Of a stretch of DNA of 64,000 bases, positions 23,952-54,798 are shown in pieces; the stretch's first letter is position 1; each line of letters starts with the position of its first letter. The notes under the pieces are model-generated. The model made no database searches, was not told where the DNA came from, and saw only the letters and a program-made list of their open reading frames with translations. This DNA comes from an uncultured bacterium (GTDB lineage Bacteria > Patescibacteriota > Minisyncoccia > UBA6257 > 2-01-FULL-56-20). The DNA is taken from NCBI GenBank assembly GCA_963844965.1, contig CAWJQC010000007.1, forward strand, positions 64,001 to 128,000, in the 5' to 3' direction. The position numbers and the translations under genes are program-made.

Positions 23952-23953
23952 AT

Positions 23954-37001: not shown

Positions 37002-38027
37002 ATGGATAAAAAACAGATTATACAATATATAGAAGGCGCGCGGCACTCGCGCATTATAACCTACCTTACGAGCGACAGGCAGGGGCCGTTTAACGCGCGG
37101 ATAGCGATGGACATTGTGCCGCTTGTGAGCAAACAGCTTCGGAATATAGGGAAAACGCAGAATATAGACCTTTACCTTTATAGTGTGGGCGGGGATACGA
37201 TGGCGCCGTGGCGGCTGGTGTCTATGATCCGCGAATATTGCGACAAATTTTCCGTGCTGGTGCCATATAAAGCGCACAGTGCGGCAACGATGGTTGCGCT
37301 TGGAGCGGATGAAATTGTGATGAGCGACCTTTCGGAGCTTTCGCCGATTGATCCCTCCACCGCGAACGTTTTCAATCCGATTGACCCGGCGAATCCGCAA
37401 AATCGCATTCCGATTTCGGTTGAGGATGTGATGGCATATTTTGAACTGGCAAAAAATAAATTCGGCATAAAAAGCGACGAAGATTTAGCCCGCATATTTA
37501 TGAAATTCGTTGAAGCCAATCCGCAAATTCATCCGCTCGCGCTTGGAAACGTAAACCGCATCCATAACCTTATTCGTATCCTTGCGAAGCGGTTGATCAA
37601 AAGCCACAAAACGCCGCTCAAAGAAGAAGAGGTGGAAAAAATCGTTGATTACTTCACCGAAAAATTATATTCTCACCAGTATTTCATCGGTAGAAAAGAA
37701 GCGAAAGACGATTTGGGGCTTAAAACCGTCGTTGACGCCGACGCCAATCTTTCCAAAGCGATGTCCGACCTCCTGGAGGAATACAACAAAGATTTGGATT
37801 TTGGGAAAATCTGGAATCCCGAAGGCGAATTGGGCGCGAACGCCGTGCAGACCCGAAAGGATTATAAAATTGCCTACATTGAGAGCCGCCAGCTTTCAAA
37901 TTATTATGATATCTCCGTTGAGTACAGAAAACAGCAGGTAAATATGGTCCAACAAACGCCGCAAGGACCAATTCAGGTTCCGCAGGAACAAGTCGGGTTC
38001 AAAATCATCGGGCAAGGGTGGAAATAG
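37002..38027 (+). CDS. ClpP-fold (SDH / S49-like) serine peptidase
   Basis: ClpP/crotonase-fold core LYLYSVGGDTMAPWRLV...YKAHSAATMVALGADEIVMS. No ATPase domain. Confidence 0.6.
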   Translation: MDKKQIIQYIEGARHSRIITYLTSDRQGPFNARIAMDIVPLVSKQLRNIGKTQNIDLYLYSVGGDTMAPWRLVSMIREYCDKFSVLVPYKAHSAATMVALGADEIVMSDLSELSPIDPSTANVFNPIDPANPQNRIPISVEDVMAYFELAKNKFGIKSDEDLARIFMKFVEANPQIHPLALGNVNRIHNLIRILAKRLIKSHKTPLKEEEVEKIVDYFTEKLYSHQYFIGRKEAKDDLGLKTVVDADANLSKAMSDLLEEYNKDLDFGKIWNPEGELGANAVQTRKDYKIAYIESRQLSNYYDISVEYRKQQVNMVQQTPQGPIQVPQEQVGFKIIGQGWK

Positions 38028-38029
38028 CC

Positions 38030-38710
38030 ATGAATTTTTCTGATTACAAGAATTCTATTTTACTGCCCGATCAATCTGCTTGGCAACAGGCGGAGTATTG
38101 GATTACTGAATCGAATATCAATGTTTTCAGCTTTCTTTCCTCTCAAAACGTTTCCATCAAAACTACGAGTTCTTCTGCTAGAGAGCTTTCATTCCAGTCG
38201 TACGTTCAGAATTTGTTTGTCAACGACCTTTCGAATACAGCGTCAGAATTAAATAGTAAGGAATCCTTTGTTTTGTCTTCCATTAATGGCTCTTTGACTT
38301 TTGAAAAATTAAGCCCCTTGGGATTTCCGGCACAAGTTATTCCAGATAAAGAGTTGGGTTCTTTAATAAAATCAAACCAATTTCCACTTTGGGATTCCTC
38401 GCCCTTCTTTTTGAGAATGAAAAGGAATAGGCGCAGTCAAGCTGATATCGAGCATTTTTATCTTGGGAGATATTTACAGAAGAATAAGCAGCCATTTTTC
38501 GTTTTTACAAATGACGACGACCAGATCCGGCAGGCTCAGCTTGAAGGATTTAAATTTATGCGGCCGCCAGACCTTCTGGTGTGGATGGTTAAAGATACGT
38601 TTGTCACGCGACAAAAAGCCGTGTGGGCTTACGAGAAAGCAAAAAAACATAATGCGCGATGGGCGAAAGCAGGCCTAAGATTCAGAGATATTCTGAACAA
38701 GTGTAGGTAA
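38030..38710 (+). CDS. Hypothetical protein, translationally coupled to the ClpP-like peptidase
   Basis: The ATG lies 3 nt after the upstream stop, with a GGTGGA ribosome-binding site. No recognisable domain. Confidence 0.55.
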   Translation: MNFSDYKNSILLPDQSAWQQAEYWITESNINVFSFLSSQNVSIKTTSSSARELSFQSYVQNLFVNDLSNTASELNSKESFVLSSINGSLTFEKLSPLGFPAQVIPDKELGSLIKSNQFPLWDSSPFFLRMKRNRRSQADIEHFYLGRYLQKNKQPFFVFTNDDDQIRQAQLEGFKFMRPPDLLVWMVKDTFVTRQKAVWAYEKAKKHNARWAKAGLRFRDILNKCR

Positions 38711-38775
38711 CTTAGCGCAATGCCCTCTCTTAACTGGATTGGGAAAGAAAAAATCGTAAATCACGACAAAGTTAA

Positions 38776-39795
38776 ATGACCGAGTTGAAAAATCGGACTT
38801 TATATTTCGGCGACAATCTGGAAATCCTACGCGAGAAAATTCCCGACGAGAGTTTTGATTTGATTTACCTTGACCCGCCGTTCAATTCCAACCGTGCCTA
38901 CAATGTAATTTATAAGGAAGGGTTGCAGGACAGCCCGGCACAAATTAAGGCCTTTGAGGATTCTTGGCATTGGACGCCGGAGGCGCAGGCAACTTTTGAG
39001 GAACTTGTCGGCATGCGGCAATCAAGGACGAAAATCAACGCTGACATTGTCAATTTGATGCAGGCGATGGAAAAACTCGTGGGACACAATGATATGCTTG
39101 CGTACCTTACAATGATGACAGTTCGGCTCATTGAACTGCGGCGCGTTTTGAAGTCAACCGGCAGTATTTATCTGCATTGCGACCCGACCGCAAGCCATTA
39201 TTTGAAAATCGTGATGGACACGATTTTCGGAAAACAGAATTTCCAAAACGAAATTATTTGGTGTTATGAAATCGGAGCTAGAAGTAAAACACACTGGGGG
39301 AGTAAACACGATGTAATTCTCTTTTATACAAAATCAGGAAACTTTATCTTTAACACAAGGGCCGTTGCTGTGCCACGGAAAGAAGGGACACACATGAAAA
39401 CCGCAGTAGACGAAGAAGGAAGAGAATATCAAGAAAAGAAGGATGCAAAAAGTGGTAAGGTCTATAGATATTATCTTGATGAAGGCGCCATCCCTCCCGA
39501 TTGGTGGGTGGGAATTCAGCAATTAAATCGTGAAGCACAAGAAAGATTGCATTATCCCACCCAAAAACCCGAAGCGCTTCTGGAAAGAATTATTAAGGCA
39601 TCGTCTAACGGACCTCCGCCAAGTCCTTCGCTGATTGCGACAGAGACAGAGGAGGTGGAGGAGAATAGAGGCGATTGGGTTCTTGACCCGTTTTGCGGTT
39701 GCGGCACGACGGTTGCCGTCGCCGAGCGGCTGAAAAGAAACTGGGTCGGCATTGACCCGCTCCGCCGCAAGCCCCGGCCTTTAGGCCGAGGATAA
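38776..39795 (+). pseudogene. N4/N6 DNA methyltransferase (beta class) whose 3' end is interrupted by an IS200/IS605 element
   Basis: DPPFN motif IV near the N-terminus and DPFCGCGTT motif I near the C-terminus. The reading frame runs into IS sequence after ...NWVGID. Confidence 0.8.
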
Positions 39796-40320
39796 GGCGA
39801 CCCCGTAGCCCCGAGCGAAGCGAGGGGCGGAGGGCTTATTTGCCTGTTCCCACTGGTTTCTGCCGGTGCGATAATGAAGATAATGCCCTCTGGATTCTGG
39901 CCAAGCAACCACAGCTATACGCGATGTTTGTACCACGTTGTTTTCTGCCCAAAGTACCGCCGCTCGATACTGCGAGGGGACATGGTCGGGCGACTCAAGA
40001 CATTGTTCTTTCAAGCCGCCAAGATGAATAAATGGTTCATCCATGAAGCGCAGATAATGCCCGACCATGTCCATCTATTGCTTCAAATTCCTGCTACCCT
40101 GACGGTTGCCAAAGCGGTGTTTTATCTCAAAGGCGGTACGTCCAGGGCTGTCAGAAAAGAATTTCCCGAGCTGGAAGAATTCCTCTGGGGAGACAGCTTG
40201 TGGCAGGATGGTTACTTTGCCGAAACCGTTGGCCGTCAAAACGAAAAAGCGATGAGAGAATATATCAGAAACCAGTGGGAACAGGAGCCGAACACAAGCC
40301 GCGGGCTTTAGCCCGCGGTG
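39757..40320 (+). mobile_element. IS200/IS605-family element (tnpA only)
   Basis: Y1 HuH transposase ORF and subterminal hairpins (CCGCGGGC-TTTA-GCCCGCGG at 40297-40317). A 20-bp inverted repeat CCTGTTCCCACTGGTTTCTG occurs at 39844-39863 and 40266-40285. An ATTGAC hexamer abuts both ends. Confidence 0.75.
39874..40311 (+). CDS. tnpA: IS200/IS605 TnpA (Y1 HuH transposase)
   Basis: YHVVFCPKYRR ... MPDHVHLLLQIP (HuH motif) ... YIRNQ C-terminus. Confidence 0.9.
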   Translation: MKIMPSGFWPSNHSYTRCLYHVVFCPKYRRSILRGDMVGRLKTLFFQAAKMNKWFIHEAQIMPDHVHLLLQIPATLTVAKAVFYLKGGTSRAVRKEFPELEEFLWGDSLWQDGYFAETVGRQNEKAMREYIRNQWEQEPNTSRGL

Positions 40321-40935
40321 ATTGACATTACGATGCTTGCCATCAATTTAATAAAACACCGGCTGATAGACGGCTTGGGAGTGGGACGGAACGAAATATG
40401 CACCGACGGTATTCCAAAGGACTTGAGCGGAGCGGAGGAACTGGCCAAAAAGGACAGATTTGCCTTTGAGTATTGGGTTTTGGATTTGGTGAACGCCGTT
40501 CCGGCGCAAAGCAAGACGAAAGAAAATATGCGCGGCGCGGACAAGGGGATTGACGGCATAATTACCATCGTAAAGTCGGTCAAGGACAATAAAAAAGAGC
40601 TTGGGAAAATTTTGGTTCAGGTGAAAAGCGGCGGCGTCCATCGCGACGACGTAGCCACGCTTAAGAGCGACGTTGAACGGGAAAAGGCCGTCGGCGGCGT
40701 TTTCATCACGCTGGAAAAGCCGACTCAGCCGATGAGAACGGAGGCGGTTGAGGCGGGAACGTTCAGGGTTGACTACTCCCAGGAAAATTTGCCGAAAATT
40801 CAGATTATAACGGTTGAGGACTTGTTGAGCGGCAAGAAACTGGACCTGCCTCCGGCCGTGGCGCTTCAGGAAACCTACTATAAGGAAGCAAAACCTGCGA
40901 AACCCGAAAACAGGGCAAAAAAATTGGGAATATAG
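40318..40935 (+). pseudogene. Mrr-like PD-(D/E)xK restriction endonuclease domain, separated from the methyltransferase by the IS200 insertion (likely the C-terminal part of one fusion protein)
   Basis: FAFEYWVLDLV...GADKGIDGII...ILVQVKSG is the Mrr_cat pattern. The frame is open from the IS end with no ATG (GTG only). Joining ...NWVGID to ITMLAINLIKHRL... gives a typical methyltransferase C-terminal helix. Confidence 0.65.
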
Positions 40936-40941
40936 AATTTT

Positions 40942-41595
40942 ATGAATTTGGATGAATTTAAACTGCAGAATTTGGGCATTGACAAAGAAAAATTCGGAAA
41001 AATTCTCAGCTTTGTAGACTTCGGCAACGTTAATTATTGGTATGAGAAAGACCGGCGCGACTGGGAGGACAACACCATTAAGCCGAATCAAAGATTAATA
41101 ATTGATATCGCAAAACTCGCTCAATTTTTGAATCTTTTCTCTGATCAAAAGCGCTTTTACTACGGATGGCACAAGCGCATGAAGAGATCTTGGCATATTT
41201 TGGTATTGGCGGAGAGAAATGGATTTGTTAAAATTACCAAACCAATACAATTCATAAAGCATTATCTTGAAGAGTTAGAGTTGGCGAGCGCAAACGGGAG
41301 GCTTGTTAAAGAAGACTTGATGGGCAGGTATATTGAAATTCCAAAAAGCAATTTTGATGTAGAGATAAGCGTTGATTCAATTCGTTTGCTGGACAAATAC
41401 AATACATTTTGCTTGCTTTCCGGCGATAGCGATTTTACTTATTTAAACCGATTTTTAAAAAGAAGGGGGAAGAAAATTATTGTTATTGCTGCAGGTCAAA
41501 TACTTCATTCCCTAAAAGAAACCGCGGACTTATATATAAACGCGCAGACAATTAAGGGAAGCATTGCCGCCGTAAAAGAAACCTCGCCCGGTTAA
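40942..41595 (+). CDS. NYN-domain (LabA-like, PIN fold) protein
   Basis: FVDFGNVNYW, DVEISVD and LLSGDSDF acidic motifs. Confidence 0.7.
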   Translation: MNLDEFKLQNLGIDKEKFGKILSFVDFGNVNYWYEKDRRDWEDNTIKPNQRLIIDIAKLAQFLNLFSDQKRFYYGWHKRMKRSWHILVLAERNGFVKITKPIQFIKHYLEELELASANGRLVKEDLMGRYIEIPKSNFDVEISVDSIRLLDKYNTFCLLSGDSDFTYLNRFLKRRGKKIIVIAAGQILHSLKETADLYINAQTIKGSIAAVKETSPG

Positions 41596-41724: not shown

Positions 41725-42507
41725 ATGTCCCAATATTACAAGCCGAAACGCGGCAGGAATTTATACAATCCGGCGAATCCGGAGCCGTTCGTCGTCAGCC
41801 GTTCCGGCATTGACCTATATATAGAGTGCCCGCGGTGTTTTTATCTGGACAGGCGTCTTGGCACCGCTAGGCCGCCGGGTTTTCCTTTCAGTTTGAACAC
41901 GGCGGTTGATGCTTTGCTCAAAAAAGAATTTGACATCCACCGCGCCGCGAACACGCAGCATCCCTTGATGAAAAAATATGGCATTGACGCCGTGCCCTAT
42001 GCGCACGAAAAGCTGGAAGAGTGGCGCGATTCCCGCCTTCGGGGCATAAAATTTTTCCACGAGCCGACGAATCTCACGATAAAAGGCGGCATTGACGACG
42101 TCTGGGTAAATCCGAAAGGAGAATTGCATATCGTGGATTACAAAGCTACCTCAAAAACATCGGAAGTTAACATTGACGCCGAGTGGCAGAGCGGATACAA
42201 GCGGCAGATGGAAGTTTACCAGTGGCTTTTCCGCAAGAACGGCTTTGATGTTTCCGACATCGGCTATTTCGTTTACTGCAACGGCGACACGGACAAAAAA
42301 GCGTTTGACGCCAAGCTGGAATTTAACGTCAAGGTGATTCCCTACAAAGGAAACGACGGCTGGGTGGAGGAAACGATTCGCGAGGTAAAAAGCTGCCTTG
42401 ATTTTGATGAACTTCCCGCGGCGAACGACAGCTGCGACTGGTGTGCCTACTTCGGCGCGAGAGAACGGCTGGAGAAAGGAAACAGCGACTTTATTGAGAG
42501 CGCGTGA
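41725..42507 (+). CDS. PD-(D/E)xK nuclease with a four-Cys cluster (Cas4/RecB-like)
   Basis: GIDDVWVNPKGELHIVDYKATSK core; N-terminal CPRC and C-terminal CDWC. Confidence 0.65.
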   Translation: MSQYYKPKRGRNLYNPANPEPFVVSRSGIDLYIECPRCFYLDRRLGTARPPGFPFSLNTAVDALLKKEFDIHRAANTQHPLMKKYGIDAVPYAHEKLEEWRDSRLRGIKFFHEPTNLTIKGGIDDVWVNPKGELHIVDYKATSKTSEVNIDAEWQSGYKRQMEVYQWLFRKNGFDVSDIGYFVYCNGDTDKKAFDAKLEFNVKVIPYKGNDGWVEETIREVKSCLDFDELPAANDSCDWCAYFGARERLEKGNSDFIESA

Positions 42508-42558: not shown

Positions 42559-43248
42559 ATGCTTAGGAGTTTTCTGGGCAAACGTTTGCTTGTTCTTGTG
42601 GCGCATCCCGACGACGAGAGTTTCGCGGCCGCCGGAACTATCCACAAGAATCGCGAGGCGGGCGGAAAGAACGCCATCATTTGCGTTACCCGCGGCGAGA
42701 GGGGAAAGTCCCATCTCGCAAGGCCGCATACGTCGCGCGAGCTTAAAGCCATCCGTTCAAAGGAGCTTGAAGCCGCGGCGCGGTTTTTGAAGGTGATGGA
42801 ACTGCGCATTCTTGATTTTCCCGATGGAAGAGTCACGGAGAATAAAAATAAAATTTACGAAAGATGCCTGCCACTTGCGCGGTGTTTGAAGCCCGACGTG
42901 ATTTTGAGCTTCGGTCCGGACGGAATTTCCGGGCATCTTGACCACATCGCCGTCGGTTCCGTGGCGAAAAAAATAGCAAGAGACCTGAAAGTTCCTTTCA
43001 TAGCTTTCGCTGCTTCGCCGCATCTCGTCAAGAATTTCCGAAGTCTTGAACAACGTAGGAAATTCGGCGTGTATTCAAAGAGCGTCCGTCACGCGGCGCA
43101 CGATCTGAAGATAGCCGTCAATTCTAAAATAAAATCAAAGACGCTGCGGTTCCATAGATCGCAGATAGGCGATGTTGGGCAGTTCCGCTCCGAAAACAGG
43201 GTGATTGCCAAAAATTTTTTGCGATACGAATATTTTCGCGTGTTGTGA
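42559..43248 (+). CDS. LmbE/PIG-L family N-acetylglucosaminyl deacetylase
   Basis: VAHPDDESFAAAG motif. Confidence 0.75.
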   Translation: MLRSFLGKRLLVLVAHPDDESFAAAGTIHKNREAGGKNAIICVTRGERGKSHLARPHTSRELKAIRSKELEAAARFLKVMELRILDFPDGRVTENKNKIYERCLPLARCLKPDVILSFGPDGISGHLDHIAVGSVAKKIARDLKVPFIAFAASPHLVKNFRSLEQRRKFGVYSKSVRHAAHDLKIAVNSKIKSKTLRFHRSQIGDVGQFRSENRVIAKNFLRYEYFRVL

Positions 43249-43333
43249 GCAGCGGGCGCGGCTTGCGCGAGCGTTTCAGCGCCGGGGAAAATCCGGAGAA
43301 AAAATCGCGATGTCGGGAGATTTGCTGCGGAGG

Positions 43334-43930
43334 TTATCGGGAATATTTTTTTGTTATCCTGCGGTAAATTCTTACTAGTACAAAAATTACGACTCCGACG
43401 GCAACGATGCCGGCGATGGTGCTTTGGATACCGGAAAAATCGCCCCAATAGCTTCCTGCGGCGTATCCAAGGGACAGCGCAACGAAAGGTTCAATAAAGT
43501 TACCTAAGAAATCATATGTGATGAAGGTTTTGAACGGCACCTTCACGAGGCCGGCGAGAATCGCCGCAATTGGGCTTAGCGATCCCGCAAAGCGGGTCGC
43601 GAATACCGTCGCCGCGGCATCAGCAACCAGTTCTTCTTTGAGCCGGGTAAAAAAGACAATTTTTTCCAGCCGCAGGACGCGGACAATCCACCTGCTGTAT
43701 TTTCTTGTAACCGCGTAGTCGGTTAAGTCGCCGAGCGTGTTGGCGGTAACGGCAACGGTGAGCGCCAGCCAATAACTGAAATACCCCTGGCTTGAAAACG
43801 CTCCTATGGCGAGGAGCATGGCATTGCCGGGAAGCGGCAGAATCACCGCGGCGGAATAGACGATGATGAAGATCGCCTCATATCTATATAGTAGTACGTA
43901 GGATAGAAGAGAACCGAGCAGGGGAATCAT
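43334..43930 (-). CDS. DedA/VTT-family membrane protein
   Basis: Polytopic, with a GDLTDYAVTRK-type DedA motif. Confidence 0.6.
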   Translation of the reverse strand: MIPLLGSLLSYVLLYRYEAIFIIVYSAAVILPLPGNAMLLAIGAFSSQGYFSYWLALTVAVTANTLGDLTDYAVTRKYSRWIVRVLRLEKIVFFTRLKEELVADAAATVFATRFAGSLSPIAAILAGLVKVPFKTFITYDFLGNFIEPFVALSLGYAAGSYWGDFSGIQSTIAGIVAVGVVIFVLVRIYRRITKKYSR

Positions 43931-44391: not shown

Positions 44392-44421
44392 GAATCTTTA
44401 CTTTGCGGCTAAAATAAAGAG

Positions 44422-47060: not shown

Positions 47061-48230
47061 ATGGTTTCCAAGAAATTGTTTTGTTTCGGCATTATTGTTT
47101 CTCTTGTTTCTTTCGCGGGAGCGATGTCCTTTGTTTTTGCTCGCCAGCCGATAGACGGTTTTGAAGCTCATCATCCTATCCATGTGAGAGGAGAAGATTC
47201 TCATGGGAATATAACGGCTATCGCCGCCGCTCTTAGGCCCGATCAGACAACCAGCCTTACGCCGACAGCGATAAAGAGCGCATATAAATTGCCGGCAACC
47301 GGCGGCAGCGGAACGACGATTGCCATCGTGGACGCATACAACGATCCGAACATAGAAAACGACCTCAATGTCTTCAGTAAACAGTTTGGCTTGCCTTCGG
47401 TTACCAGTGCGAACTTCAGCGAGGTTTTAATGTCCCCGAGAGTTCAGAACGACAGCGGCTGGGGGCTTGAGGAATCACTCGATACCCAGTGGGCTCATGC
47501 TGTTGCGCCAAGCGCAAAAATTCTTCTAGTGATTGCGAAATCGGCGAGCGGCAATGACCTTCTTGCGGCAGTTGATTACGCGCGATCTCAGCGTGGCGTT
47601 GTGGCGGTCTCTATGAGCTGGGGTGGCAGCGAATTTTCAGGCGAGTCAAGCTATGATTCGTATTTTACGAGCAAGAACGGCAATAGCATTACCTTCTTTG
47701 CCGCCTCGGGAGATGGCGGACACGGTGTTGAATGGCCTGCGGTTTCTTCAAATGTCGTTGGCGTAGGCGGGACAACACTTACGCTCGCGGCGAACGGCGC
47801 AGTATCTTCTGAAACGGCCTGGAGCGGGAGTGGTGGAGGATTGAGCGGCTACGAGTCTGAGCCGGGCTACCAGACAACGTATAATATTCCAAATGATGCA
47901 AAAAAGTATCGGGCGGTACCGGATGTGTCGTATGATGCCGATCCCAATTCCGGTGTTTCGGTATATGACAGTTACGCTTATCAGGGATATAAGGGTTGGT
48001 TTGTCGTTGGCGGCACAAGCGTCGGAGCACCTCAATGGGCGGCAATCAAAGCGCTCGGCGGCACAGCCTCAAACCAGAAATTCTATCCGGACGCTTCGGG
48101 TGTCTCCTATGCATCCTACTTCCGCGACATCATGAGCGGCGGAAATGGTTCGTGTGCTCTTTATTGTACGGCCTCAGGTGGCTACGATTACGTTACTGGA
48201 CTCGGAAGTCCGCTTACGACAAAGTTCTAG
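47061..48230 (+). CDS. Secreted S8/S53-family serine peptidase (sedolisin-like)
   Basis: Signal peptide, IAIVDAY (catalytic Asp), and GGTSVGAPQWAAIKAL (catalytic Ser motif). Confidence 0.6.
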   Translation: MVSKKLFCFGIIVSLVSFAGAMSFVFARQPIDGFEAHHPIHVRGEDSHGNITAIAAALRPDQTTSLTPTAIKSAYKLPATGGSGTTIAIVDAYNDPNIENDLNVFSKQFGLPSVTSANFSEVLMSPRVQNDSGWGLEESLDTQWAHAVAPSAKILLVIAKSASGNDLLAAVDYARSQRGVVAVSMSWGGSEFSGESSYDSYFTSKNGNSITFFAASGDGGHGVEWPAVSSNVVGVGGTTLTLAANGAVSSETAWSGSGGGLSGYESEPGYQTTYNIPNDAKKYRAVPDVSYDADPNSGVSVYDSYAYQGYKGWFVVGGTSVGAPQWAAIKALGGTASNQKFYPDASGVSYASYFRDIMSGGNGSCALYCTASGGYDYVTGLGSPLTTKF

Positions 48231-48673: not shown

Positions 48674-49420
48674 ATGAAAATAAGGAACATCGGCGCGGGG
48701 AAGGCAACAGTCCTCGTGGGCGTTCTCAAGCGCAAGCGGGATTTGGACATATTTCTCAAAGAACATTGGTATAGGATCCCGCTTCTTAAAGTGCCCAAGC
48801 GGAAGTTTCGTTATTTGGCGCTGTACGAACCGGCGCGCTTTGGACGGCGAAGCAAGTGCATCAGATATTACGCCCGCGTCGCGCGGTGCCTTGTGGAGAA
48901 GCGGCGCGAACTGCTGCCGGACGAAAGGGAGCATCCGAACGCCGAAGAGAGGTATCTGAGGATTCGCGTCGGCAGGGTCACGCGGTTGCCGCGGCCAATT
49001 CGGAACGTGCCGCCGCGCCGCCTGTCTTTCGGTTTCGCCGACCTTGACCGGCTGCTTGCCGTGAAGACCATTTTACAGCTTTACCACGTCGCTCCGACCG
49101 AGGAGATCGTCGGCGCGGCGCTCAAGCGTTCTCACATCCGCGCCATTCCCCAGTGCCATGTTTCGTGCGCCGGGAAACATTACTGTTTGGATTTCGCGGT
49201 CCATTGCGAACGCGGCTCAATTGCCGTTGAGTGCGACAATAAGAAAGCGCATGCCGGCGCCCGCCAGCAAGCGTACGATAGCGCCAAAGACACTTTTCTT
49301 TTTAATCATGGCTGGACGGTCATCCGGCTGAAGGAGGAAGCGATACTCTCCGATGTCCAATCCTGTGTTTTGCGGATACGGCGCGCCATAAAAAACTTCG
49401 GTGGAATGGCCTGTCGGTAG
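48674..49420 (+). CDS. DUF559-type (Vsr-like) endonuclease-domain protein, GC-rich and probably foreign
   Basis: C-terminal DFAVHCERGSIAVECDNKKAH...D..R...L...GWTVIRL pattern of DUF559. Arg-rich and visibly higher GC than neighbouring genes. Confidence 0.55.
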   Translation: MKIRNIGAGKATVLVGVLKRKRDLDIFLKEHWYRIPLLKVPKRKFRYLALYEPARFGRRSKCIRYYARVARCLVEKRRELLPDEREHPNAEERYLRIRVGRVTRLPRPIRNVPPRRLSFGFADLDRLLAVKTILQLYHVAPTEEIVGAALKRSHIRAIPQCHVSCAGKHYCLDFAVHCERGSIAVECDNKKAHAGARQQAYDSAKDTFLFNHGWTVIRLKEEAILSDVQSCVLRIRRAIKNFGGMACR

Positions 49421-49580: not shown

Positions 49581-50367
49581 GCCCGCCGGTTAACAATTGT
49601 TAACCGGCGGGCGGGAAGAGCAGGGTGTAATGAGGCGCGTAGCTCACCTGGCTGCTAATGGCGCGGCGCGATTTTCTCGCGCTAATTTCCGGGATGCGAA
49701 CCATTTCAGGATTTTCGGCAGATCGTTTTTGCTGATAACAAAAGCCCTCCCGATGCGGGTTGCCGGAATTCTCTTTTTGTCTATATTTTTGAAAACCGCG
49801 ACGCGGCTGATGCCCAAAACTTTCGCAAGTTCCGCCGTGGATATGAATTCCTTGTTGATCTCGTCCGCCATTCTCCGCATTTTCATTTTTCCACCTTAGC
49901 ACAATATCCGCGGGTTAACAATTGTTAACTTTGTCGGAATGGTAATCGGCCATAGTTAAAATCATAGTCAAAATGGTGGCTCATCTAGTGATTTGCCTCT
50001 GGTTGGGGGCTCTGAGTATCAACCAGTACCGGTTAACAATTGTTAACTTTGTCAGAATAGTGATTTGACATAGTTAGAACAATTAGAATGGTGACCTGCC
50101 ATAGTCGCATAGTCACGTGGCTCGTCCTTGGTGGTGGACTTTGGGCATCAATCGGCGCGGGTTAACAATTGTTAACTTTGTCAGAATGGTAATCTGTAGC
50201 CGGCGGGATCTCTGGCGGAGTCCTCCGCCAGGGGCGTGGTATCCCGGACATCAACTGGCGCCGGTTAACAATTGTTAACCGAGCAACAGAAAACAAAACC
50301 GAGAAAAAATCCCCCCAGTCATTTTTTCATCGTTTTTCCGTCCGCAGGTTAACAATTGTTAACCTGC
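49581..50367. repeat. Array of six perfect 16-bp palindromes GTTAACAATTGTTAAC. Copies 2-5 sit within ~100-130-bp degenerate tandem repeat units.
   Basis: Palindrome cores at 49589, 49914, 50032, 50161, 50264 and 50348. Three are extended to 22-32-bp perfect palindromes (for example GCCCGCCGGTTAACAATTGTTAACCGGCGGGC at 49581-49612). Copies 2-4 share a TTTGTCRGAATRGTRATY extension, and repeat units share ...ATCAAYNNNNCSGGTTAAC. Confidence 0.85.
49644..49886 (-). CDS. Excisionase-family / MerR-like helix-turn-helix DNA-binding protein
   Basis: ISTAELAKVLGISRVAVFKNIDKKRIPATRIGRAFVISKNDL matches the excisionase-family HTH pattern. Confidence 0.7.
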   Translation of the reverse strand: MKMRRMADEINKEFISTAELAKVLGISRVAVFKNIDKKRIPATRIGRAFVISKNDLPKILKWFASRKLARENRAAPLAAR

Positions 50368-50484
50368 ACTGTGCGCTGCCTGTTGACTATTACTGACTAT
50401 TAAAAAATGCGGGTAGATAAAGCGAGCACGGTATGGAGTTGGGGCCGCTTGACGATGCGCGGTCGCGGTGTTAATTTCATAAAT

Positions 50485-50967
50485 ATGAACGAGGAAAAGA
50501 GGGGGAAATATTGGAAGTTCGCGGTCGGGCTCGTCGCGCTCGTTCTTTTGGCGTTAGGGGCTTTTGTCGCGGCGAGGTATTATGGGCGACTGGAAGAGCA
50601 GCGGGCGGCGAACGACGCCACACAGTCGCTCCAAAAAGAAATCGCGGACTACAACGCGCGTCTCGCCTTGGACACCTACGGCGGCAAAACGCCGCAGGAA
50701 ACGCTGCAGCTCTACGTTGACGCCGTGGAGAAAGGCAACTACGTCCTCGCGAGCAAGTATTTCATAGGGGACAATCAGGAGAAGGAATTAAGCAGTTTAC
50801 AGAACAGTCCGAAGGAAAACACACAAAATGTTTTGCGTCTGCTTAAAACCGATCTTCAATCCGAAGGAAGTTTTTCTGAGAATAAAGATACGTATGGTAT
50901 AGAGAAGCCGCTTTTTGTTGATTTCAGACTTTATCCCAACGGCATCTGGAAGATTATAGAAATTTAG
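50485..50967 (+). CDS. Membrane-anchored hypothetical protein
   Basis: MNEEKRGKYWKFAVGLVALVLLALGAFVAA transmembrane anchor. Lies downstream of the palindrome array and is followed by a weak hairpin terminator at 51075-51096. Confidence 0.5.
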   Translation: MNEEKRGKYWKFAVGLVALVLLALGAFVAARYYGRLEEQRAANDATQSLQKEIADYNARLALDTYGGKTPQETLQLYVDAVEKGNYVLASKYFIGDNQEKELSSLQNSPKENTQNVLRLLKTDLQSEGSFSENKDTYGIEKPLFVDFRLYPNGIWKIIEI

Positions 50968-51100
50968 TAGTTCTTGTGGCTCTTGCCTGCCGGCAGGCAG
51001 GCAATAGGGTTTGGCCAACAGTCGTCTGTCATCTATCTGTCCGTCACAGCATCGCTTGGCACTGGCTTGAAAAAATCCGCCGAGAAGCGGTTTTTATTGA

Positions 51101-51130
51101 CTGGAAAAATTCGCGAAAAAGTGGGACAAT
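51101..51130 (+). promoter_or_regulatory. 30-bp motif CTGGAAAAATTCGCGAAAAAGTGGGACAAT immediately upstream of the RhuM-Fic gene (copy 1)
   Basis: 29 of 30 nt identical to the motif at 52340-52369. Contains the palindromic core TTCGCGAA. Confidence 0.6.
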
Positions 51131-51141
51131 AAGACAAAACC

Positions 51142-52107
51142 ATGAAAAAGAAGGCGATAAAAAATGAAATTGTAATATATCAGGCCAAAAACGGAGCGAT
51201 AGAATTTCGTAAGGACTTGCGCGCAGAAACGATTTGGGCAACGCAGGCGCAGATCGTTAAACTTTTTGATATTGATCAGTCAGTAGCTTCGCGGCACATA
51301 AGCAATATCTTCAAGGACGGCGAGGTTGACAAAAAAAGCAATATGCAAAAAATGCATATTGCAAATTCGGACAAACCAGTTGTTCTTTATTCACTCGATA
51401 TGATTTTAGCAGTCGGATATAGGACGAACTCGGGACGGGCGATAACTTTCCGCCAGTGGGCAACCAAGACCTTGCGGGCGCATATTATAGATAGCTATAC
51501 CATCAACCGTGCTCGCATTGCCCAGAATTACGAAGTTTTTCTGAAAGCGGTGGAAGATGTAAAAAAACTTCTTCCAACGGGCGGAGCAGTGGATATTGTC
51601 AATGTATTGGAATTGATCAAGACATTCGCGAGTACCTGGGTATCGCTGGATGCCTACGACAAATCCGCTCTGCCAAAGAGCGGCGCTACAAAAAAACAGG
51701 TTAAACTGACGGCGCAGGATTTCTCGGCCGCGCTCCTTGAACTTAGGCGGGAATTAACGGCCAAAAAAGAAGCCAGTGAACTTTTCGCGGTTGAACACCA
51801 GAAAGGAAACGTGACCGGTATAGTCGGCAACGTACTCCAATCCTTCGGCGGCAAAGACCTCTATCCAAGTGTTGAAGAAAAAGCGGCCCACCTTTTGTAT
51901 TTTATGGTTAAGAATCATCCGTTCACTGACGGCAACAAACGAGCAGGCGCATTTTCGTTCGTATGGTTTTTGAGAAAAGCCGGATTGCTGAATACCGCGC
52001 GCCTTACTCCCGAAGCCTTGACGGCGCTCACTCTGCTCGTTGCGGAAAGCAGTCCGAAAGACAAAGAGCGGGTAGTCGGATTGGCTCTTCTGCTTTTAAA
52101 AAAGTAG
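51142..52107 (+). CDS. RhuM-family N-terminal domain fused to a Fic/Doc domain
   Basis: N-terminal IVIYQAKNGAIEFRKD...WATQAQIVKLFD (RhuM-like). C-terminal HPFTDGNKRAG (Fic/Doc motif HxFx(D/E)GNKR). Confidence 0.7.
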   Translation: MKKKAIKNEIVIYQAKNGAIEFRKDLRAETIWATQAQIVKLFDIDQSVASRHISNIFKDGEVDKKSNMQKMHIANSDKPVVLYSLDMILAVGYRTNSGRAITFRQWATKTLRAHIIDSYTINRARIAQNYEVFLKAVEDVKKLLPTGGAVDIVNVLELIKTFASTWVSLDAYDKSALPKSGATKKQVKLTAQDFSAALLELRRELTAKKEASELFAVEHQKGNVTGIVGNVLQSFGGKDLYPSVEEKAAHLLYFMVKNHPFTDGNKRAGAFSFVWFLRKAGLLNTARLTPEALTALTLLVAESSPKDKERVVGLALLLLKK

Positions 52108-52339
52108 TTGCGACGAACCATCGAACAGTCCCACCCGTGCTCATCGGGGTTTAGTATTGGGGTGCGAAGCAGGGTGGTGAATGCGGCCTTTTTATATCCG
52201 GAGGATACCGCGTTCTACTGCTCTGGCCCGGCTAGGTTAATTGCCCCGACCTTGCGTCGGGGCTACTACCCATGAGCCCCATGGTGAAATTGCGACCAAA
52301 AATCGTGGCCGTAGGCCTTCGCAATTTCTACTATCGGGG

Positions 52340-52369
52340 CTGGAAAAATTCGCGAAAAAGTGGGAGAAT
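52340..52369 (+). promoter_or_regulatory. 30-bp motif CTGGAAAAATTCGCGAAAAAGTGGGAGAAT immediately upstream of the restriction endonuclease gene (copy 2)
   Basis: See copy 1. It ends 6 nt before the ATG at 52376. Confidence 0.6.
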
Positions 52370-52375
52370 GGGGAT

Positions 52376-53062
52376 ATGTCACAAGAGCAAATTAGGAAAA
52401 AAAATGGAGGCGCGGCAATCAAGGCTTTAGTCTCGGCAGGAGAAGAGATTTTGTCTAATTTGCAGCGAGTTATTGCTGTTGGCGGTTTCGATTATCGCAC
52501 TTTTGGTACGGCCATCGAGAAACACCTTAGCAATATTATTGTCAAAATTTTTAAAGAGAGAGGTTTTATTAGAAATAATCGGGATTACATTGTTGCACCA
52601 CATAAAAATTATTTTCCTGATTTTGAGTTAAAAACTGCGCCGCCCATTGCGATAGAGTTTAAATCCGGCAATAAAAGTCAGAACAGAAAGGGCAAATGGG
52701 TTACCGTTAAAAACAGCGAGAACGATATGGGCACGTTGAACGAGTGGCCCAAAAAGATTAAAAGATTTGGGGGAGAAAATATATACTATGTTTTTGTAAT
52801 CTATAATTTTAATAAAAAAACGAAACAGATCTTGAGTATAGAAATAGCCCCATTTTATAAATTTTTAGGACTTAGCAAGGGAAGCGTTCTTAAATATAGA
52901 GAAAAAGACGGAAATTTGCGGCCAAAAAATTTCGACGCCGAACCGCCGATAAAAAACCTGAGTCAGTTTGAGCAGTTATTTAATAAAACTATAATTTACA
53001 GATCAAAACGAATAATCAAAAAACACAAGCTAATTATTAAAAAAGCATCCTCGGGTTCTTGA
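52376..53062 (+). CDS. PD-(D/E)xK Type II restriction endonuclease candidate
   Basis: FPDFELKTAPPIAIEFKSG fits the PD...ExK pattern. Convergent with the methyltransferase and overlaps its 3' end by 26 bp. The start was chosen at the Met directly downstream of the conserved motif. Confidence 0.55.
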   Translation: MSQEQIRKKNGGAAIKALVSAGEEILSNLQRVIAVGGFDYRTFGTAIEKHLSNIIVKIFKERGFIRNNRDYIVAPHKNYFPDFELKTAPPIAIEFKSGNKSQNRKGKWVTVKNSENDMGTLNEWPKKIKRFGGENIYYVFVIYNFNKKTKQILSIEIAPFYKFLGLSKGSVLKYREKDGNLRPKNFDAEPPIKNLSQFEQLFNKTIIYRSKRIIKKHKLIIKKASSGS

Positions 53063-54617
53063 CGTTCACAGGGCTAGCTTTTTTATTAATTTGTTTTCTG
53101 GCAATAGCGAATGCGGGGTTATCTATCGGATAGATTCCTTCATCTTCGGATATCGTTAAATTTCTCAGATATTTTGATGCAACTTCTGGGGTATCGCCAT
53201 TGTATTTATAGCCGTTACTTGATCTATAATTAACTTTTTTGAGCTTGTCCGCAACAATTTTTTTATATTTTGGATCTATGTCAATACCGATATAGTTTCG
53301 GCCGAGTCGCTTTGCGGCCAATGCGGTTGTTCCTGCCCCAACGAAAGGATCTAGTACCACGTCGCCCTCGTCCGTCGTCATCAGAATCAAGCGTTCAAGT
53401 AGCGGCTCCGGAAGTTGGCACGGATGGGCGTCTCTGCGCGCATTATGTCTTATGCGGTGAATATCGGCCCAAACATCGCTTAGAAGTGTTCCGTGCGGGT
53501 GTATCTGACTTTTCTTTCCTCCGTAATCTTTGATCATTTTGCCACAACTCCGGCATTTCTTATGTGGCGCCCTAAGTTCGTGGAATTTAAATCCTTTGGG
53601 AAGTTTTGTATAGAATAGTATTCCGTAGTGTGCGGGTAATAAGGTTTTGCCTAAAGGCGTACTCATTGAATCCCACGCGATCCAGTGTTTAAAGACCGCA
53701 ATCTTATTGAGATGATTAGCATAATAAATTAACCACTTTGGTATATTGTGGACCAAAATAGAGCCCGTTGGTTTAGTTATTCTAACCATCTCGGTTAGCC
53801 ATTGCTCACACCACTTTATATAATCTTCCGCCGCTTTTTTGTCTTTATAGCTGCCGTATTTCTTATTTAGGTTAAATGGAGGGTCCGCGAAGGTCATATC
53901 AATTGAGTCGGCGGGAAGTTTTCTCATTTCCTCAATCGAATCTCCGCATAAAATTTCGTTGAGCGGTATCTTTTTGTATTGCTTATATTCTGTTTTTGTT
54001 TCCGGAAAGGTGACAGTAGAGGGAGTTTCTTCGCTGATAACATCGAGTACTATTCCTTGTATGGAAATATCCCGGCCATTTCGAAAGATTAGAGGCTCCA
54101 TGTTTTTGTTCGCCGGTTGTAAACGGATTCGGCCCCGTTCTTTATAGAATTTTTTAAGCGTTGCTTCGTGATTATCTATAAGTGCCACCACCTTTTGTCC
54201 ATTTTCGGCAACGCCCTGTTGTTTAACCAAGACGAGATCGCCATTGTTTATATTTTCGTCAACCATACTGTTTCCGACCACGCGTAGAGCGAAGAATTCT
54301 CCGGAGCGGGGAAGTTTGCTTTGCGGAACGGCAATGGTTTCTTTTTCCTCAACAGCTTCAATCGGCTGGCCGGCAGCTATGATGCCTAACAGGGGGATGC
54401 TAACCATTTTTTCCGATTCAGAAATTTGAATGCCGCGTCGCTTGTTCTCTTCTATTCGCAGGTGGCCGCCTTCCTGGAGCTTCTGAAGGTGTTCATGAAT
54501 GGTTCCGACTGCTCGCTTAAAATGTTTAGCTGTCTCCGGGATAGAAGGAGAGTAGCCATGTTTTTTTGAGTACGTTTTAAAAAAATCCAGAACCTCCTTT
54601 TGTTTTTTAGTGATCAT
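53037..54617 (-). CDS. LexA-like repressor (HTH plus S24 peptidase domain) fused to an N4/N6 DNA methyltransferase
   Basis: N-terminal ~200 aa: KQKEVLDFFK...HL, IPLLGIIAAGQPIEA, GNSMVDENINNGDLVLV and ATLKKF, the Ser/Lys dyad context of LexA. C-terminal ~320 aa: DPPFN, VLDPFVGAGTT and GIDIDPKY methyltransferase motifs. Confidence 0.75.
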   Translation of the reverse strand: MITKKQKEVLDFFKTYSKKHGYSPSIPETAKHFKRAVGTIHEHLQKLQEGGHLRIEENKRRGIQISESEKMVSIPLLGIIAAGQPIEAVEEKETIAVPQSKLPRSGEFFALRVVGNSMVDENINNGDLVLVKQQGVAENGQKVVALIDNHEATLKKFYKERGRIRLQPANKNMEPLIFRNGRDISIQGIVLDVISEETPSTVTFPETKTEYKQYKKIPLNEILCGDSIEEMRKLPADSIDMTFADPPFNLNKKYGSYKDKKAAEDYIKWCEQWLTEMVRITKPTGSILVHNIPKWLIYYANHLNKIAVFKHWIAWDSMSTPLGKTLLPAHYGILFYTKLPKGFKFHELRAPHKKCRSCGKMIKDYGGKKSQIHPHGTLLSDVWADIHRIRHNARRDAHPCQLPEPLLERLILMTTDEGDVVLDPFVGAGTTALAAKRLGRNYIGIDIDPKYKKIVADKLKKVNYRSSNGYKYNGDTPEVASKYLRNLTISEDEGIYPIDNPAFAIARKQINKKASPVNVKNPRMLF

Positions 54618-54798
54618 ATTTCCATTATATCATACCGACCCGAAAGAAAACCGAAAGTTATCCACAGGTTGGTTTTCGTTGATACGCGCGCTTGACGCCG
54701 CTCGTGTCGTTTGCTACCTTGTAGCGAATAGTAAATAGCCCATAACTCAATAACGAGTTCTGCCGCACTGGAGTAGCTTGCGGCGGAACATTTAATAT

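What the first reader, a model, noticed from the sequence alone, without database searches (positions are those of the whole stretch)
37002..54700. An ~18-kb mosaic mobile/defence island
Reading 5' to 3': ClpP-like peptidase with partner, a disrupted methyltransferase-REase fusion with IS200, NYN, Cas4-like, LmbE, DedA, secreted peptidases, a GC-rich DUF559 gene, an HTH with palindrome iterons, RhuM-Fic, an REase, and the LexA-methyltransferase fusion. Composition shifts, several nuclease and toxin-like genes, two insertion elements and an iteron/operator array suggest a horizontally acquired island, possibly an integrated plasmid or integrative element. Several components look unlike described systems.
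Basis: inference. Interest (0 to 1): 0.65.

Follow-up and report, generated by a model that had tools for sequence, protein, structure and literature searches.

The report
Patchwork chromosome stretch, not one island

Summary
The gene inventory is almost fully confirmed. One 529-aa methyltransferase-Mrr gene is split in frame by a 570-bp IS200/IS605 element. Six exact copies of GTTAACAATTGTTAAC flank a small HTH_17 gene. RhuM-Fic matches PADLOC candidate PDC-S23. The "REase" has an EcoRV/SwaI fold. The last gene is a full LexA fused to a beta-class DNA methyltransferase.

The reading as one acquired island, plasmid or integrative element is not supported. There is no integrase, Rep, relaxase, att repeat or bordering tRNA. 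GC spread and tetranucleotide signature match the flanks. The genome-wide TCGA depletion holds across most of the block.

One relative (L048) has VanY-p186-p1063 adjacent. Here those genes are separated by two ~3.8-kb inserts.

Only three pieces look recent: the IS, the 230-aa gene at 38018, and the LexA-methyltransferase/REase pair. That pair recurs in six different genomic contexts in Patescibacteria at 64-80% identity.

The "iterons" are operators. The same palindrome overlaps the promoter of HTH_17-Fic operons in relatives.

No close sibling genome exists, so presence/absence could not be tested.

The parts
37002..38027 (+). SDH/ClpP-like serine protease, 341 aa; accessory, defence-candidate gene
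   Evidence: PF01972 3e-14. phrog_11747 5e-37 and NCBIfam Clp_like_SDH below its cutoff. A full-length 33%-identical homologue is a lone gene between Q antiterminator and holin on an E. coli phage-plasmid. TCGA 0 observed, 4.6 expected, which is host-like.
38018..38710 (+). 230-aa partner ORF overlapping the protease gene by 10 nt; no known family
   Evidence: No hit in Pfam, PADLOC, NCBIfam, PHROGs or PDB. GC 0.40. TCGA 3 observed, 2.9 expected, so not depleted and probably recent.
38776..39756 (+). 5' part (327 codons) of a methyltransferase-Mrr fusion gene
   Evidence: N6_N4_Mtase 1e-43 and PADLOC MTase_II 2e-52. The frame continues at 40327.
39757..40326 (+). IS200/IS605-family element, 570 bp, TnpA at 39874-40311, inserted in frame into the fusion gene
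   Evidence: Y1_Tnp 9e-39. Subterminal hairpins at 39772-39791 and 40299-40318. ATTGAC at both junctions. An independent Logan contig of the same strain ends exactly at 39756.
40327..40935 (+). 3' part of the fusion gene: end of the methyltransferase fold plus an Mrr_cat-type nuclease domain
   Evidence: Mrr_cat 3e-10 and NA-iREase1 8e-12. The reconstituted ORF is 529 aa with no internal stop.
40942..41595 (+). NYN-domain protein, 7 nt after the fusion gene
   Evidence: PF01936 1e-14. PADLOC NYN is weak.
41725..42507 (+). PD-(D/E)XK nuclease (Cas4-like fold), probably chromosomal
   Evidence: PDDEXK_1 3.5e-13; Cas4 models are below threshold. A 54%-identical homologue lies about 1.9 kb from VanY in relative L036.
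42559..46597 (.). Cell-envelope and housekeeping stretch: PIG-L/LmbE (42559-43248 +), DedA (43334-43930 -), p154 (43927-44391 -), p206 (44422-45042 +), VanY (45698-46597 +)
   Evidence: Pfam. TCGA 1 observed, 16.3 expected. VanY has more than 577 relatives in metagenomes at up to 61% identity.
47061..48230 (+). Secreted sedolisin-type (S53) peptidase
   Evidence: PDB sedolisin 1.7e-13 over residues 68-383. The N-terminus is hydrophobic.
48674..49420 (+). DUF559/MTES_1575 (Vsr-like endonuclease domain) protein, GC 0.57
   Evidence: PF18741 4e-10 and PF04480 6e-8. A 48%-identical homologue abuts VanY in L022.
49644..49886 (-). HTH_17 (excisionase/MerR-like) DNA-binding protein, 80 aa; solo relative of the first gene of HTH_17-Fic operons
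   Evidence: PF12728 2e-7. Homologues at 65-73% identity. In L099 and L101-L103 it is followed, overlapping, by a 143-aa Fic gene.
49589..50363 (.). Array of six exact 16-bp palindromes GTTAACAATTGTTAAC: one in a long hairpin after the HTH_17 stop codon, five in the 520-bp gap up to p186. These are operators of the HTH_17 protein.
   Evidence: The same palindrome overlaps the promoter of HTH_17 homologues in L099 and L101, and occurs 9 times around the solo homologue in L098. Hairpin dG -49 kcal/mol, z -6.8.
50407..50967 (+). p186, membrane-anchored protein; chromosomal backbone gene
   Evidence: A 55%-identical homologue lies directly between VanY and the p1063 homologue in L048.
51101..52369 (+). 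RhuM-Fic/Doc gene (51142-52107) bracketed by a 30-bp direct repeat (51101-51130 and 52340-52369)
   Evidence: PF13310 and PF02661. PADLOC PDC-S23 1.7e-101 over the full length. Doc-like toxin hits. Repeat 29/30 identical and absent from relatives.
52376..53062 (+). Type II restriction endonuclease, EcoRV/SwaI fold, 228 aa
53037..54617 (-). LexA (wHTH + S24 autopeptidase) fused to a beta-class DNA methyltransferase, 526 aa; convergent with the REase and overlapping it by 26 bp
   Evidence: Pfam. PDB LexA 3k2z 4e-33 (residues 2-193); methyltransferases 9c3u, 8urk and M.MboIIA (residues 222-460). Ser and Lys of the S24 dyad conserved in at least 90% of 108 relatives, Ala-Gly in at least 60-90%. 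More than 100 clusters share the architecture.
54618..54670 (-). Promoter region of the LexA-methyltransferase gene: TGnTATAAT, tandem TTTCGG repeats (54639-54655), TGTGGATAA (54658-54666)
   Evidence: The same layout occurs in L007, L009 and L104, with variants in L005 and L105.
54799..57990 (+). p1063, large surface-type protein; right-flank backbone gene (the public gene call is 1032 aa, so the start is about 54892)
   Evidence: A homologue follows p186 directly in L048. Relatives are Parcubacteria lamin-tail-domain proteins. TCGA 0 observed, 12.9 expected.

Best explanation
The block is resident chromosome of a Patescibacteria (Parcubacteria-type) bacterium. It has picked up several small, independent accessory modules and did not arrive as one element.

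Backbone genes:
- the PD-(D/E)XK nuclease, PIG-L, DedA, VanY, p186 and p1063.

Inserted or variable pieces:
1. An SDH/ClpP-like protease with a 230-aa partner.
2. A methyltransferase-Mrr fusion gene with a NYN gene. It is now dead because an IS200/IS605 element landed in the methyltransferase fold.
3. A ~3.8-kb stretch between VanY and p186. It holds a sedolisin peptidase, a DUF559 nuclease, and a solo HTH_17 repressor with an amplified set of its own 16-bp operator.
4. A ~3.8-kb stretch between p186 and p1063. It holds a RhuM-Fic/Doc gene (PDC-S23) bracketed by a 30-bp repeat, and a two-gene Type II restriction-modification cassette.

How the pieces work:
- Shown: in the cassette an EcoRV-fold nuclease is paired with a methyltransferase that carries a complete LexA at its N-terminus.
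- Inferred: the LexA part binds the tandem repeats at its own promoter and represses it. RecA-stimulated self-cleavage at Ala-Gly during DNA damage releases the DNA-binding domain. Methyltransferase output then rises, which protects newly made DNA from the partner nuclease.
- Shown by comparison: the HTH_17 protein binds GTTAACAATTGTTAAC.
- Inferred: it represses its own promoter and the promoters that face p186.
For: Gene identities.

IS insertion resolved to the base.

Host-like signature:
- Tetranucleotide correlation 0.86-0.92 over most of the block (dip to 0.79 at 50-54 kb) against 0.85-0.93 in the flanks.
- TCGA ratio 0.23 inside against 0.17-0.32 in the flanks and 0.59 in the IS3 composite element.
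- Per module, only p230 (3 observed, 2.9 expected), the IS (1, 0.8) and the R-M cassette (6, 8.1) escape the depletion. PIG-L..VanY (1, 16.3), p389..array (2, 12.0) and p1063 (0, 12.9) are depleted.
- GC spread is no larger than elsewhere in the window.

Backbone synteny: VanY-p186-p1063 are contiguous in L048 with 136-bp and 18-bp gaps.

Cassette mobility:
- The LexA-methyltransferase plus convergent REase pair occurs in six unrelated contexts: the window, L005, L007, L009, L104 and L105.
- It is 64-80% identical, while backbone proteins reach only 41-61% in any relative.
- Its GC is 0.41 against 0.49 for the window.

No mobility genes, att repeats or bordering tRNA.

LexA module intact. REase fold.

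Operator assignment.

Variable hotspot next to HTH_17-Fic in relatives: L099 and L101 share a backbone but carry different cargo.
Against: - Synteny rests on one 7-kb relative contig and three genes. The other relative loci with enough flanking sequence showed no p186 or p1063 homologue near VanY.
- No genome closer than about 60% protein identity exists in the collections searched, so presence/absence in siblings was not tested.
- Host-like oligonucleotide use could also result from old acquisition followed by amelioration, or from transfer among relatives under the same restriction pressure.
- Only 64 kb of a 331,718-bp contig was visible. An integrase further away cannot be excluded.
- The regulatory steps (LexA cleavage, operator binding) are inferred from sequence only.
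Confidence: 0.7

Rival explanations
1. The whole 37.0-54.7 kb block is one horizontally acquired genomic island or integrative element.
For: Clustering of nuclease, methyltransferase and toxin-like genes. One IS. An excisionase-family HTH. Low-GC patches at 38.0-38.7 and 52.2-54.6 kb.
Against: No integrase, relaxase or Rep. No bracketing repeats. No tRNA at either border. Host-like tetranucleotide use and TCGA depletion over about 80% of the block. Backbone genes inside it are contiguous with the right flank in L048. The HTH_17 is a Fic-operon regulator in relatives, not an excisionase next to an integrase.
Confidence: 0.1
2. The palindrome array with the HTH gene is the iteron origin or centromere of an integrated plasmid.
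For: Six exact repeats of a 16-bp site in 0.8 kb next to a small DNA-binding protein. F-plasmid sopC-type centromeres are arrays of palindromes (general knowledge).
Against: No Rep, ParA/ParB or relaxase nearby. The identical palindrome overlaps the promoter (between the -35 TTGACA and the start codon) of HTH_17-Fic two-gene operons in L099 and L101, inside ordinary chromosomal neighbourhoods (FtsEX ... ABC ... VanY). Spacing is irregular at 84-325 bp. Cumulative GC skew rises steadily through the site. Only single, chance-level hits in 2.9 million viral contigs.
Confidence: 0.04
3. Nothing here is mobile: the block is ordinary, vertically inherited chromosome, and the apparent mosaic only reflects the poor synteny of candidate-phyla-radiation genomes.
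For: Host-like composition. Relatives at 50-60% identity show almost no synteny anywhere.
Against: The IS insertion is a demonstrable event. The R-M cassette is far more conserved (up to 80%) than any backbone protein, sits in six different contexts, and is not TCGA-depleted. A 30-bp repeat brackets RhuM-Fic.
Confidence: 0.12

Closest known systems
Defence islands / variable chromosomal hotspots (clusters of R-M, toxin and nuclease genes)
   Same: Several defence-type genes lie within 18 kb: two methyltransferase-nuclease systems, PDC-S23, and NYN, PD-(D/E)XK and DUF559 nucleases, together with an IS. In relatives L099 and L101 the neighbourhood of HTH_17-Fic carries different cargo on a shared backbone.
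   Different: This is not a discrete mobile island. About 6 kb of cell-envelope genes and backbone genes are interleaved, composition is host-like, and there is no integration machinery.
Type IIP restriction-modification systems with an EcoRV-family nuclease, and R-M systems controlled by C proteins or by an HTH fused to the methyltransferase (M.SsoII and M.EcoRII type; from general knowledge)
   Same: A beta-class N6/N4 methyltransferase (DPPF, FxGxG) is paired with a convergent EcoRV/SwaI-fold nuclease. A DNA-binding domain at the methyltransferase N-terminus could autoregulate. L007 also has a classical HTH_3 C-protein gene.
   Different: The fused regulator is a complete LexA with an intact Ala-Gly cleavage site and Ser/Lys dyad. 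That would tie control to RecA and DNA damage. The conserved upstream element is a tandem direct repeat, not a C-box palindrome. No description was found in four literature searches.
LexA / SOS repressors (PDB 3k2z, 1jhh)
   Same: Full-length match over residues 2-193 at 4e-33, with wHTH, cleavage site and catalytic residues.
   Different: It carries 330 extra residues of methyltransferase. It sits in a mobile R-M cassette rather than next to SOS genes. No LexA-type palindrome was found in its promoter.
HTH-Fic/Doc type II toxin-antitoxin-like operons with an autoregulated operator
   Same: Relatives of the HTH_17 gene head two-gene operons with a 143-aa Fic. The same palindrome overlaps their promoter.
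   Different: Here, and in L098, the HTH gene is solo and its operator is amplified to 6 and at least 9 copies. The only Fic domain nearby is the C-terminus of RhuM-Fic, 1.25 kb away (39-43% identity to those Fic partners).
IS200/IS605 family
   Same: 145-aa Y1 transposase, subterminal hairpins, no terminal inverted repeats, short element.
   Different: Nothing unusual. A 6-bp ATTGAC is present at both junctions, so the exact end cannot be assigned to one copy.

Membership tests
Genomic island / integrative element | Integrase or recombinase (or relaxase/Rep) encoded in or at the edge of the block | tested here: not met
   None among the ORFs scanned against Pfam. The only transposase is the IS200 TnpA.
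Genomic island / integrative element | Bracketing direct repeats (att) and/or insertion next to a tRNA gene | tested here: not met
   No repeat pairs the two borders. The sole tRNA (Asn) is at 27859-27935.
Genomic island / integrative element | Composition distinct from the host | tested here: not met
   Tetranucleotide correlation is 0.86-0.92 over most of the block, with one dip to 0.79 at 50-54 kb. TCGA ratio is 0.23 against 0.17-0.32 in the flanks. GC spread is typical of the window. Only three sub-pieces deviate.
Genomic island / integrative element | Absent as a unit from close relatives | not testable with these tools
   No relative closer than about 60% protein identity was found. One distant relative shows backbone genes contiguous.
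Defence island (statistical clustering of defence genes) | Several recognised defence genes adjacent to one another | tested here: met
   PADLOC: MTase_II twice, PDC-S23 at full length, weak Cas4/NYN/PDC-S02, plus an EcoRV-fold REase. However, the two clusters are split by 6 kb of envelope genes.
Type II restriction-modification system | DNA methyltransferase with catalytic and SAM motifs | tested here: met
   DPPF and LDPFVGAGTT are conserved. PADLOC MTase_II 1.7e-73. PDB M.MboIIA and M.RsrI relatives.
Type II restriction-modification system | Adjacent nuclease with a restriction-enzyme fold and catalytic residues | tested here: met
Type II restriction-modification system | The pair is inherited together | tested here: met
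   The partner is present, convergent and overlapping in 6 of 6 contexts examined.
Type II restriction-modification system | Sequence-specific cleavage blocked by cognate methylation | not testable with these tools
   Needs enzymology or methylome data. The recognition site is unknown.
LexA repressor | N-terminal wHTH, Ala-Gly cleavage site, Ser/Lys dyad | tested here: met
   IAAGQP, GNSM and TLKKF align with E. coli A84-G85, S119 and K156. Ser and Lys are kept in at least 90% of 108 relatives, Ala-Gly in at least 60-90%. The E. coli sequence was supplied from memory.
LexA repressor | Binds a palindromic SOS box at its own and SOS-gene promoters; cleaved on RecA activation | tested here: inconclusive
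   No LexA-type palindrome upstream. Tandem direct repeats are conserved there instead. Cleavage was not tested.
Plasmid iterons / origin | Rep gene beside tandem, regularly spaced direct repeats | tested here: not met
   No Rep. The sites are palindromes at 84-325 bp spacing.
HTH-Fic/Doc toxin-antitoxin-like operon | Small HTH gene immediately followed by a Fic/Doc gene | tested here: not met
   Met in L099 and L101-L103. In the window the HTH_17 gene is followed only by a hairpin and the convergent DUF559 gene.
IS200/IS605 | Y1 HUH transposase and subterminal hairpins, no terminal inverted repeats | tested here: met
PADLOC PDC-S23 (candidate, not a validated system as far as I know) | Full-length match to the family model | tested here: met
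   1.7e-101, residues 3-320 on profile positions 3-324 of 327.

The most novel reading that the evidence does not exclude
The LexA-methyltransferase/EcoRV-fold nuclease pair may be a DNA-damage-responsive Type II restriction-modification system. Self-cleavage of the methyltransferase's own LexA module, triggered by activated RecA, would reset the methylase-to-nuclease balance. That could give restriction alleviation during repair or, conversely, a damage-triggered suicide switch. This control logic has not been described for R-M systems, yet the cassette is spread through Patescibacteria in more than 100 sequence clusters. A second unexcluded oddity is that the amplified HTH_17 operator arrays (6 copies here, at least 9 in L098) form a distinct regulatory or DNA-organising device rather than simple autoregulation.
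Probability: 0.3. Interest if true: 0.7.

Novelty: new member of a known kind. Interest (0 to 1): 0.4.

Why it matters
As an 'island' it does not matter much. It is a typical variable stretch of a small candidate-phyla-radiation genome. Its main lesson is that clustered defence genes need not have arrived together.

Two pieces deserve their own follow-up:
- A widespread, uncharacterised R-M cassette whose methyltransferase is a LexA fusion. It offers a direct test of whether restriction systems can be wired to the SOS signal.
- A small repressor whose exact 16-bp operator is conserved across genomes and locally amplified into arrays.

The genome-wide TCGA depletion also gave a simple internal clock for telling resident DNA from recently arrived DNA when no sibling genomes exist.

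Tried and rejected
- Sibling comparison. A genome-contig scan with ABC_tran_2 found only 35-41% relatives, in Moraniibacteriota and Saccharibacteria.
- A metagenome scan with VanY gave 80 loci at 61% identity or less, almost all without synteny.
- Homologues of p1063 reach at most 55% identity over roughly a third to half of the protein.
- Exact-protein look-ups returned only the same strain, ERR10755942, or nothing. A true presence/absence test was therefore impossible.
- The palindrome as a LexA box for the fusion protein was rejected. No copy lies near the LexA-methyltransferase promoter. The site travels with HTH_17 instead.
- The palindrome in viral contigs gave 8 single hits and no arrays.
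- Close relatives of the LexA-methyltransferase and the SDH protease on viral contigs: none.
- Rfam: nothing but the tRNA at gathering thresholds, and only chance-level miRNA hits in the array.
- A single-sequence structure of the REase was useless (pLDDT 35). It was repeated with a 40-sequence alignment.
- Palindrome avoidance as a clue to R-M specificity. GTTAAC and CAATTG are not avoided. TCGA is, but the cassette itself is not depleted, so TCGA is probably not its site.
- The 30-bp repeat as a conserved regulatory site of the cassette is not present in relatives.
- The paper on the Patescibacteria SOS network (PubMed 28618189) is not held. Whether it mentions the fusion is unknown.

Full report
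**What is there.**
Read left to right:
- an SDH/ClpP-like protease (37002-38027) overlapping a 230-aa ORF with no family hit;
- an N6_N4 methyltransferase, an IS200 transposase and an Mrr-type nuclease domain;
- a NYN protein and a PD-(D/E)XK nuclease (the Cas4 models hit only below threshold);
- PIG-L/LmbE, DedA, two unknown ORFs and VanY;
- a peptidase that matches solved sedolisins at 1.7e-13;
- a GC-rich DUF559/MTES_1575 protein and an 80-aa HTH_17 protein on the minus strand;
- six exact copies of GTTAACAATTGTTAAC (none of 100 shuffles reached six, and no near-copy exists elsewhere in the window);
- a 186-aa membrane protein, RhuM-Fic, a 228-aa nuclease, and a 526-aa LexA-S24-methyltransferase fusion.

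Two details of the observation do not hold. Only one insertion sequence lies inside the block. GC variation inside (sd 0.052 in 500-bp bins) is no greater than outside (0.048), and 41% of equally long blocks of the window vary at least as much.

**The organism.**
The nearest relatives of every gene tested are Patescibacteria (candidate phyla radiation, Parcubacteria-type) from groundwater and sediment metagenomes. The window comes from a 331,718-bp contig. Two short Logan contigs from run ERR10755942 are 99.9% identical to it.

**The IS insertion.**
The methyltransferase ORF and the Mrr ORF are in the same frame. Deleting 39757-40326 (570 bp) joins ...RNWVGID to ITMLAINLIKHRL... and gives one uninterrupted 529-aa protein. 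The joint restores the 'GIDI' sequence that follows the SAM-binding motif in the other methyltransferase of the window. The element has hairpins near both ends and ATTGAC at both junctions. The independent Logan contig stops exactly at 39756. The system is dead, and the NYN gene 7 nt downstream was probably part of it.

**Is it one island?**
No integrase, recombinase, Rep, Par or relaxase domain was found. No repeat brackets the block. The only tRNA gene is 9 kb to the left.

Composition gives a sharper test than GC.
- TCGA is strongly avoided in this genome, with 70 sites against 252 expected (z = -11.5).
- The block is as depleted (ratio 0.23) as its flanks (0.17-0.32). An obviously recent IS3-bracketed segment at 22.6-27.8 kb is much less depleted (0.59).
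- Broken down by module, PIG-L..VanY (1 observed, 16.3 expected), the sedolisin..array stretch (2, 12.0) and p1063 (0, 12.9) are host-like.
- Only the 230-aa ORF (3, 2.9), the IS (1, 0.8) and the R-M cassette (6, 8.1) are not depleted.
- Tetranucleotide correlation with the rest of the window is 0.86-0.92 over most of the block. The single dip to 0.79 falls at 50-54 kb, over the cassette.

**Backbone running through the block.**
Among 80 metagenome loci carrying a VanY relative, one (L048) has VanY, a 55%-identical p186 homologue and a p1063 homologue in a row on one strand, with gaps of 136 and 18 bp. In the window the same three genes are separated by 3.8 kb (sedolisin, DUF559, HTH_17, palindromes) and 3.8 kb (RhuM-Fic, nuclease, LexA-methyltransferase). 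Two other relatives have a DUF559 gene abutting VanY (L022) and the PD-(D/E)XK homologue about 1.9 kb from VanY (L036). This is only one relative for the key trio. Still, it places chromosomal backbone inside and beyond the proposed island.

**The R-M cassette.**
The fusion protein has more than 100 full-length relatives (63-80% identity), all with the same three domains and all from Patescibacteria. In the five other contexts fetched (L005/L006, L007/L008, L009, L104, L105) it is always followed by a convergent, overlapping 225-230-aa gene that is 57-69% identical to 52376-53062. The surrounding genes differ every time.

The LexA part matches solved LexA over residues 2-193 (4e-33). It retains the Ala-Gly cleavage site and the Ser and Lys of the catalytic dyad; Ser and Lys are conserved in at least 90% of 108 relatives. 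The methyltransferase part has DPPF and FxGxG motifs and resembles M.MboIIA and M.RsrI.

The cassette is far better conserved than any backbone protein. It has low GC (0.41) and escapes TCGA depletion, so I regard it as a recently transferred mobile two-gene unit.

Upstream of the fusion gene, six family members share tandem direct repeats (TTTCGG / TTCGGG / GTTCGGTA, 11-bp period) abutting the -10 box. Four of them share an exact TGTGGATAAC. There is no LexA-type palindrome.

Mechanism, inferred only:
- The LexA module autoregulates the promoter.
- RecA-stimulated self-cleavage removes the DNA-binding domain.
- Methyltransferase expression rises during DNA damage.

I found no description of such a fusion in four literature searches. 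The one directly relevant paper is not held.

**The palindromes.**
Homologues of the HTH_17 protein (65-73% identity) settle what the sites are.
- In L099 and L101-L103 the homologue is the first gene of a two-gene operon with an overlapping 143-aa Fic/Doc gene. The same TTAACAATTGTTAA lies between a TTGACA -35 box and the start codon. That is a classical autoregulatory operator.
- In L098 the homologue is solo, as here, and nine copies of the palindrome surround it.
- In both solo cases the copy just after the stop codon is embedded in a longer perfect hairpin whose outer arms differ but stay complementary: CCCGCCGG.../...CCGGCGGG here, TGCGTCGG.../...CCGACGCA in L098. Here it folds at -49 kcal/mol, z -6.8.
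- The copy at 49914 overlaps a predicted promoter of the HTH gene.
- Units P2-P4 also share about 30 nt on the plus strand, facing p186.

These are therefore operators of a repressor, not plasmid iterons. Why they are amplified is unexplained. The Fic domain of RhuM-Fic is 39-43% identical to the small Fic partners in the relatives. A regulatory link between HTH_17 and RhuM-Fic is possible but not shown.

**RhuM-Fic and the protease.**
RhuM-Fic matches PADLOC candidate PDC-S23 over its full length (1.7e-101) and Doc-type toxins in its C-terminal part. A 30-bp direct repeat (29 of 30 identical) precedes both its start codon and that of the nuclease and is absent from relatives. This suggests the gene was slipped in front of the nuclease gene.

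The SDH-type protease has a full-length 33% homologue on an E. coli phage-plasmid. There it is a lone gene between the Q antiterminator and the holin, a typical accessory-gene slot. No equivalent of its 230-aa partner is annotated there.

**Verdict.**
The block is a stretch of resident chromosome in a Patescibacteria genome that has accumulated at least four or five independent small accessory or defence modules and one IS. It is not a single island, plasmid or integrative element.

Confidence is 0.7. It is limited by the lack of sibling genomes, by reliance on one syntenic relative, and by seeing only 64 kb of the contig.

Taken as a whole it is an ordinary member of a known kind (a variable, defence-rich region). 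The LexA-fused methyltransferase cassette and the operator arrays are the parts worth separate study.

Noticed in passing
window 22587-27788 and 27859-27935: Two 1162-bp, 100% identical IS3-family copies in inverted orientation bracket a 902-aa ResIII / Type III-restriction-like helicase (GC 0.40), right beside tRNA-Asn. It looks like a composite transposon and is the least TCGA-depleted part of the window (ratio 0.59).
   Followed up: partly
window 16691-19208: A P-type cation ATPase is split into two overlapping ORFs (16691-17881 and 17862-19208). This is probably a frameshifted pseudogene or a sequencing error.
   Followed up: no
whole window: TCGA is very strongly avoided (70 observed, 252 expected, z -11.5). 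GGCC, CTAG and GATC are also low. This implies long exposure to a TCGA-specific restriction enzyme that was not identified. The LexA-methyltransferase cassette itself is not depleted.
   Followed up: partly
window 6065(-), 41692(+), 46860(-), 54658(-); L007, L009, L104: The DnaA-box sequence TGTGGATAA occurs four times in 64 kb (about 0.5 expected). It is conserved as TGTGGATAAC at a fixed distance upstream of the -10 box of the LexA-methyltransferase gene in four different genomes. Another copy sits 33 nt before the PD-(D/E)XK gene.
   Followed up: partly
window 19968-20030 and 22485-22547: A 63-nt direct repeat (86% identical) brackets two unknown genes (20255-22263). One of them contains an 18-bp tandem repeat at 21915-22022.
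   Followed up: no
L048 147, 264, 1817, 6213, 6594: This relative carries its own dispersed 20-bp palindrome, GCTAATTCGTGCGAATTAGC, five times in 7.2 kb of intergenic DNA. The outer stems vary but stay complementary, like REP elements.
   Followed up: no
L107 (E. coli phage-plasmid NZ_CP081704) 6021-6997: A 108-aa 'LexA repressor' gene (33% identical to residues 2-82 of the fusion protein) overlaps a phage N6-adenine methyltransferase gene by 4 nt. This is the same pairing of a LexA-type DNA-binding domain with a DNA methylase, here as separate genes.
   Followed up: partly
L099 versus L101, around 6000-12000: Two Nealsonbacteria-type relatives share FtsE-FtsX-HTH_17-Fic ... ABC-ABC2(-VanY). 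Between them they carry different cargo: small unknown genes in one, and a C-protein / EcoRI-like methylase / GmrSD-HNH / AAA_15 set in the other. It is a variable hotspot next to the HTH_17-Fic operon.
   Followed up: partly
window 54831-54847; L005 about 9734-9822; L099 3177; L101 3144: Hairpins of the form (A)TCCCGC-N3-GCGGGA(T) recur in intergenic DNA of several of these genomes, including upstream of the LexA-methyltransferase gene. They may be terminators or another repeat family.
   Followed up: no
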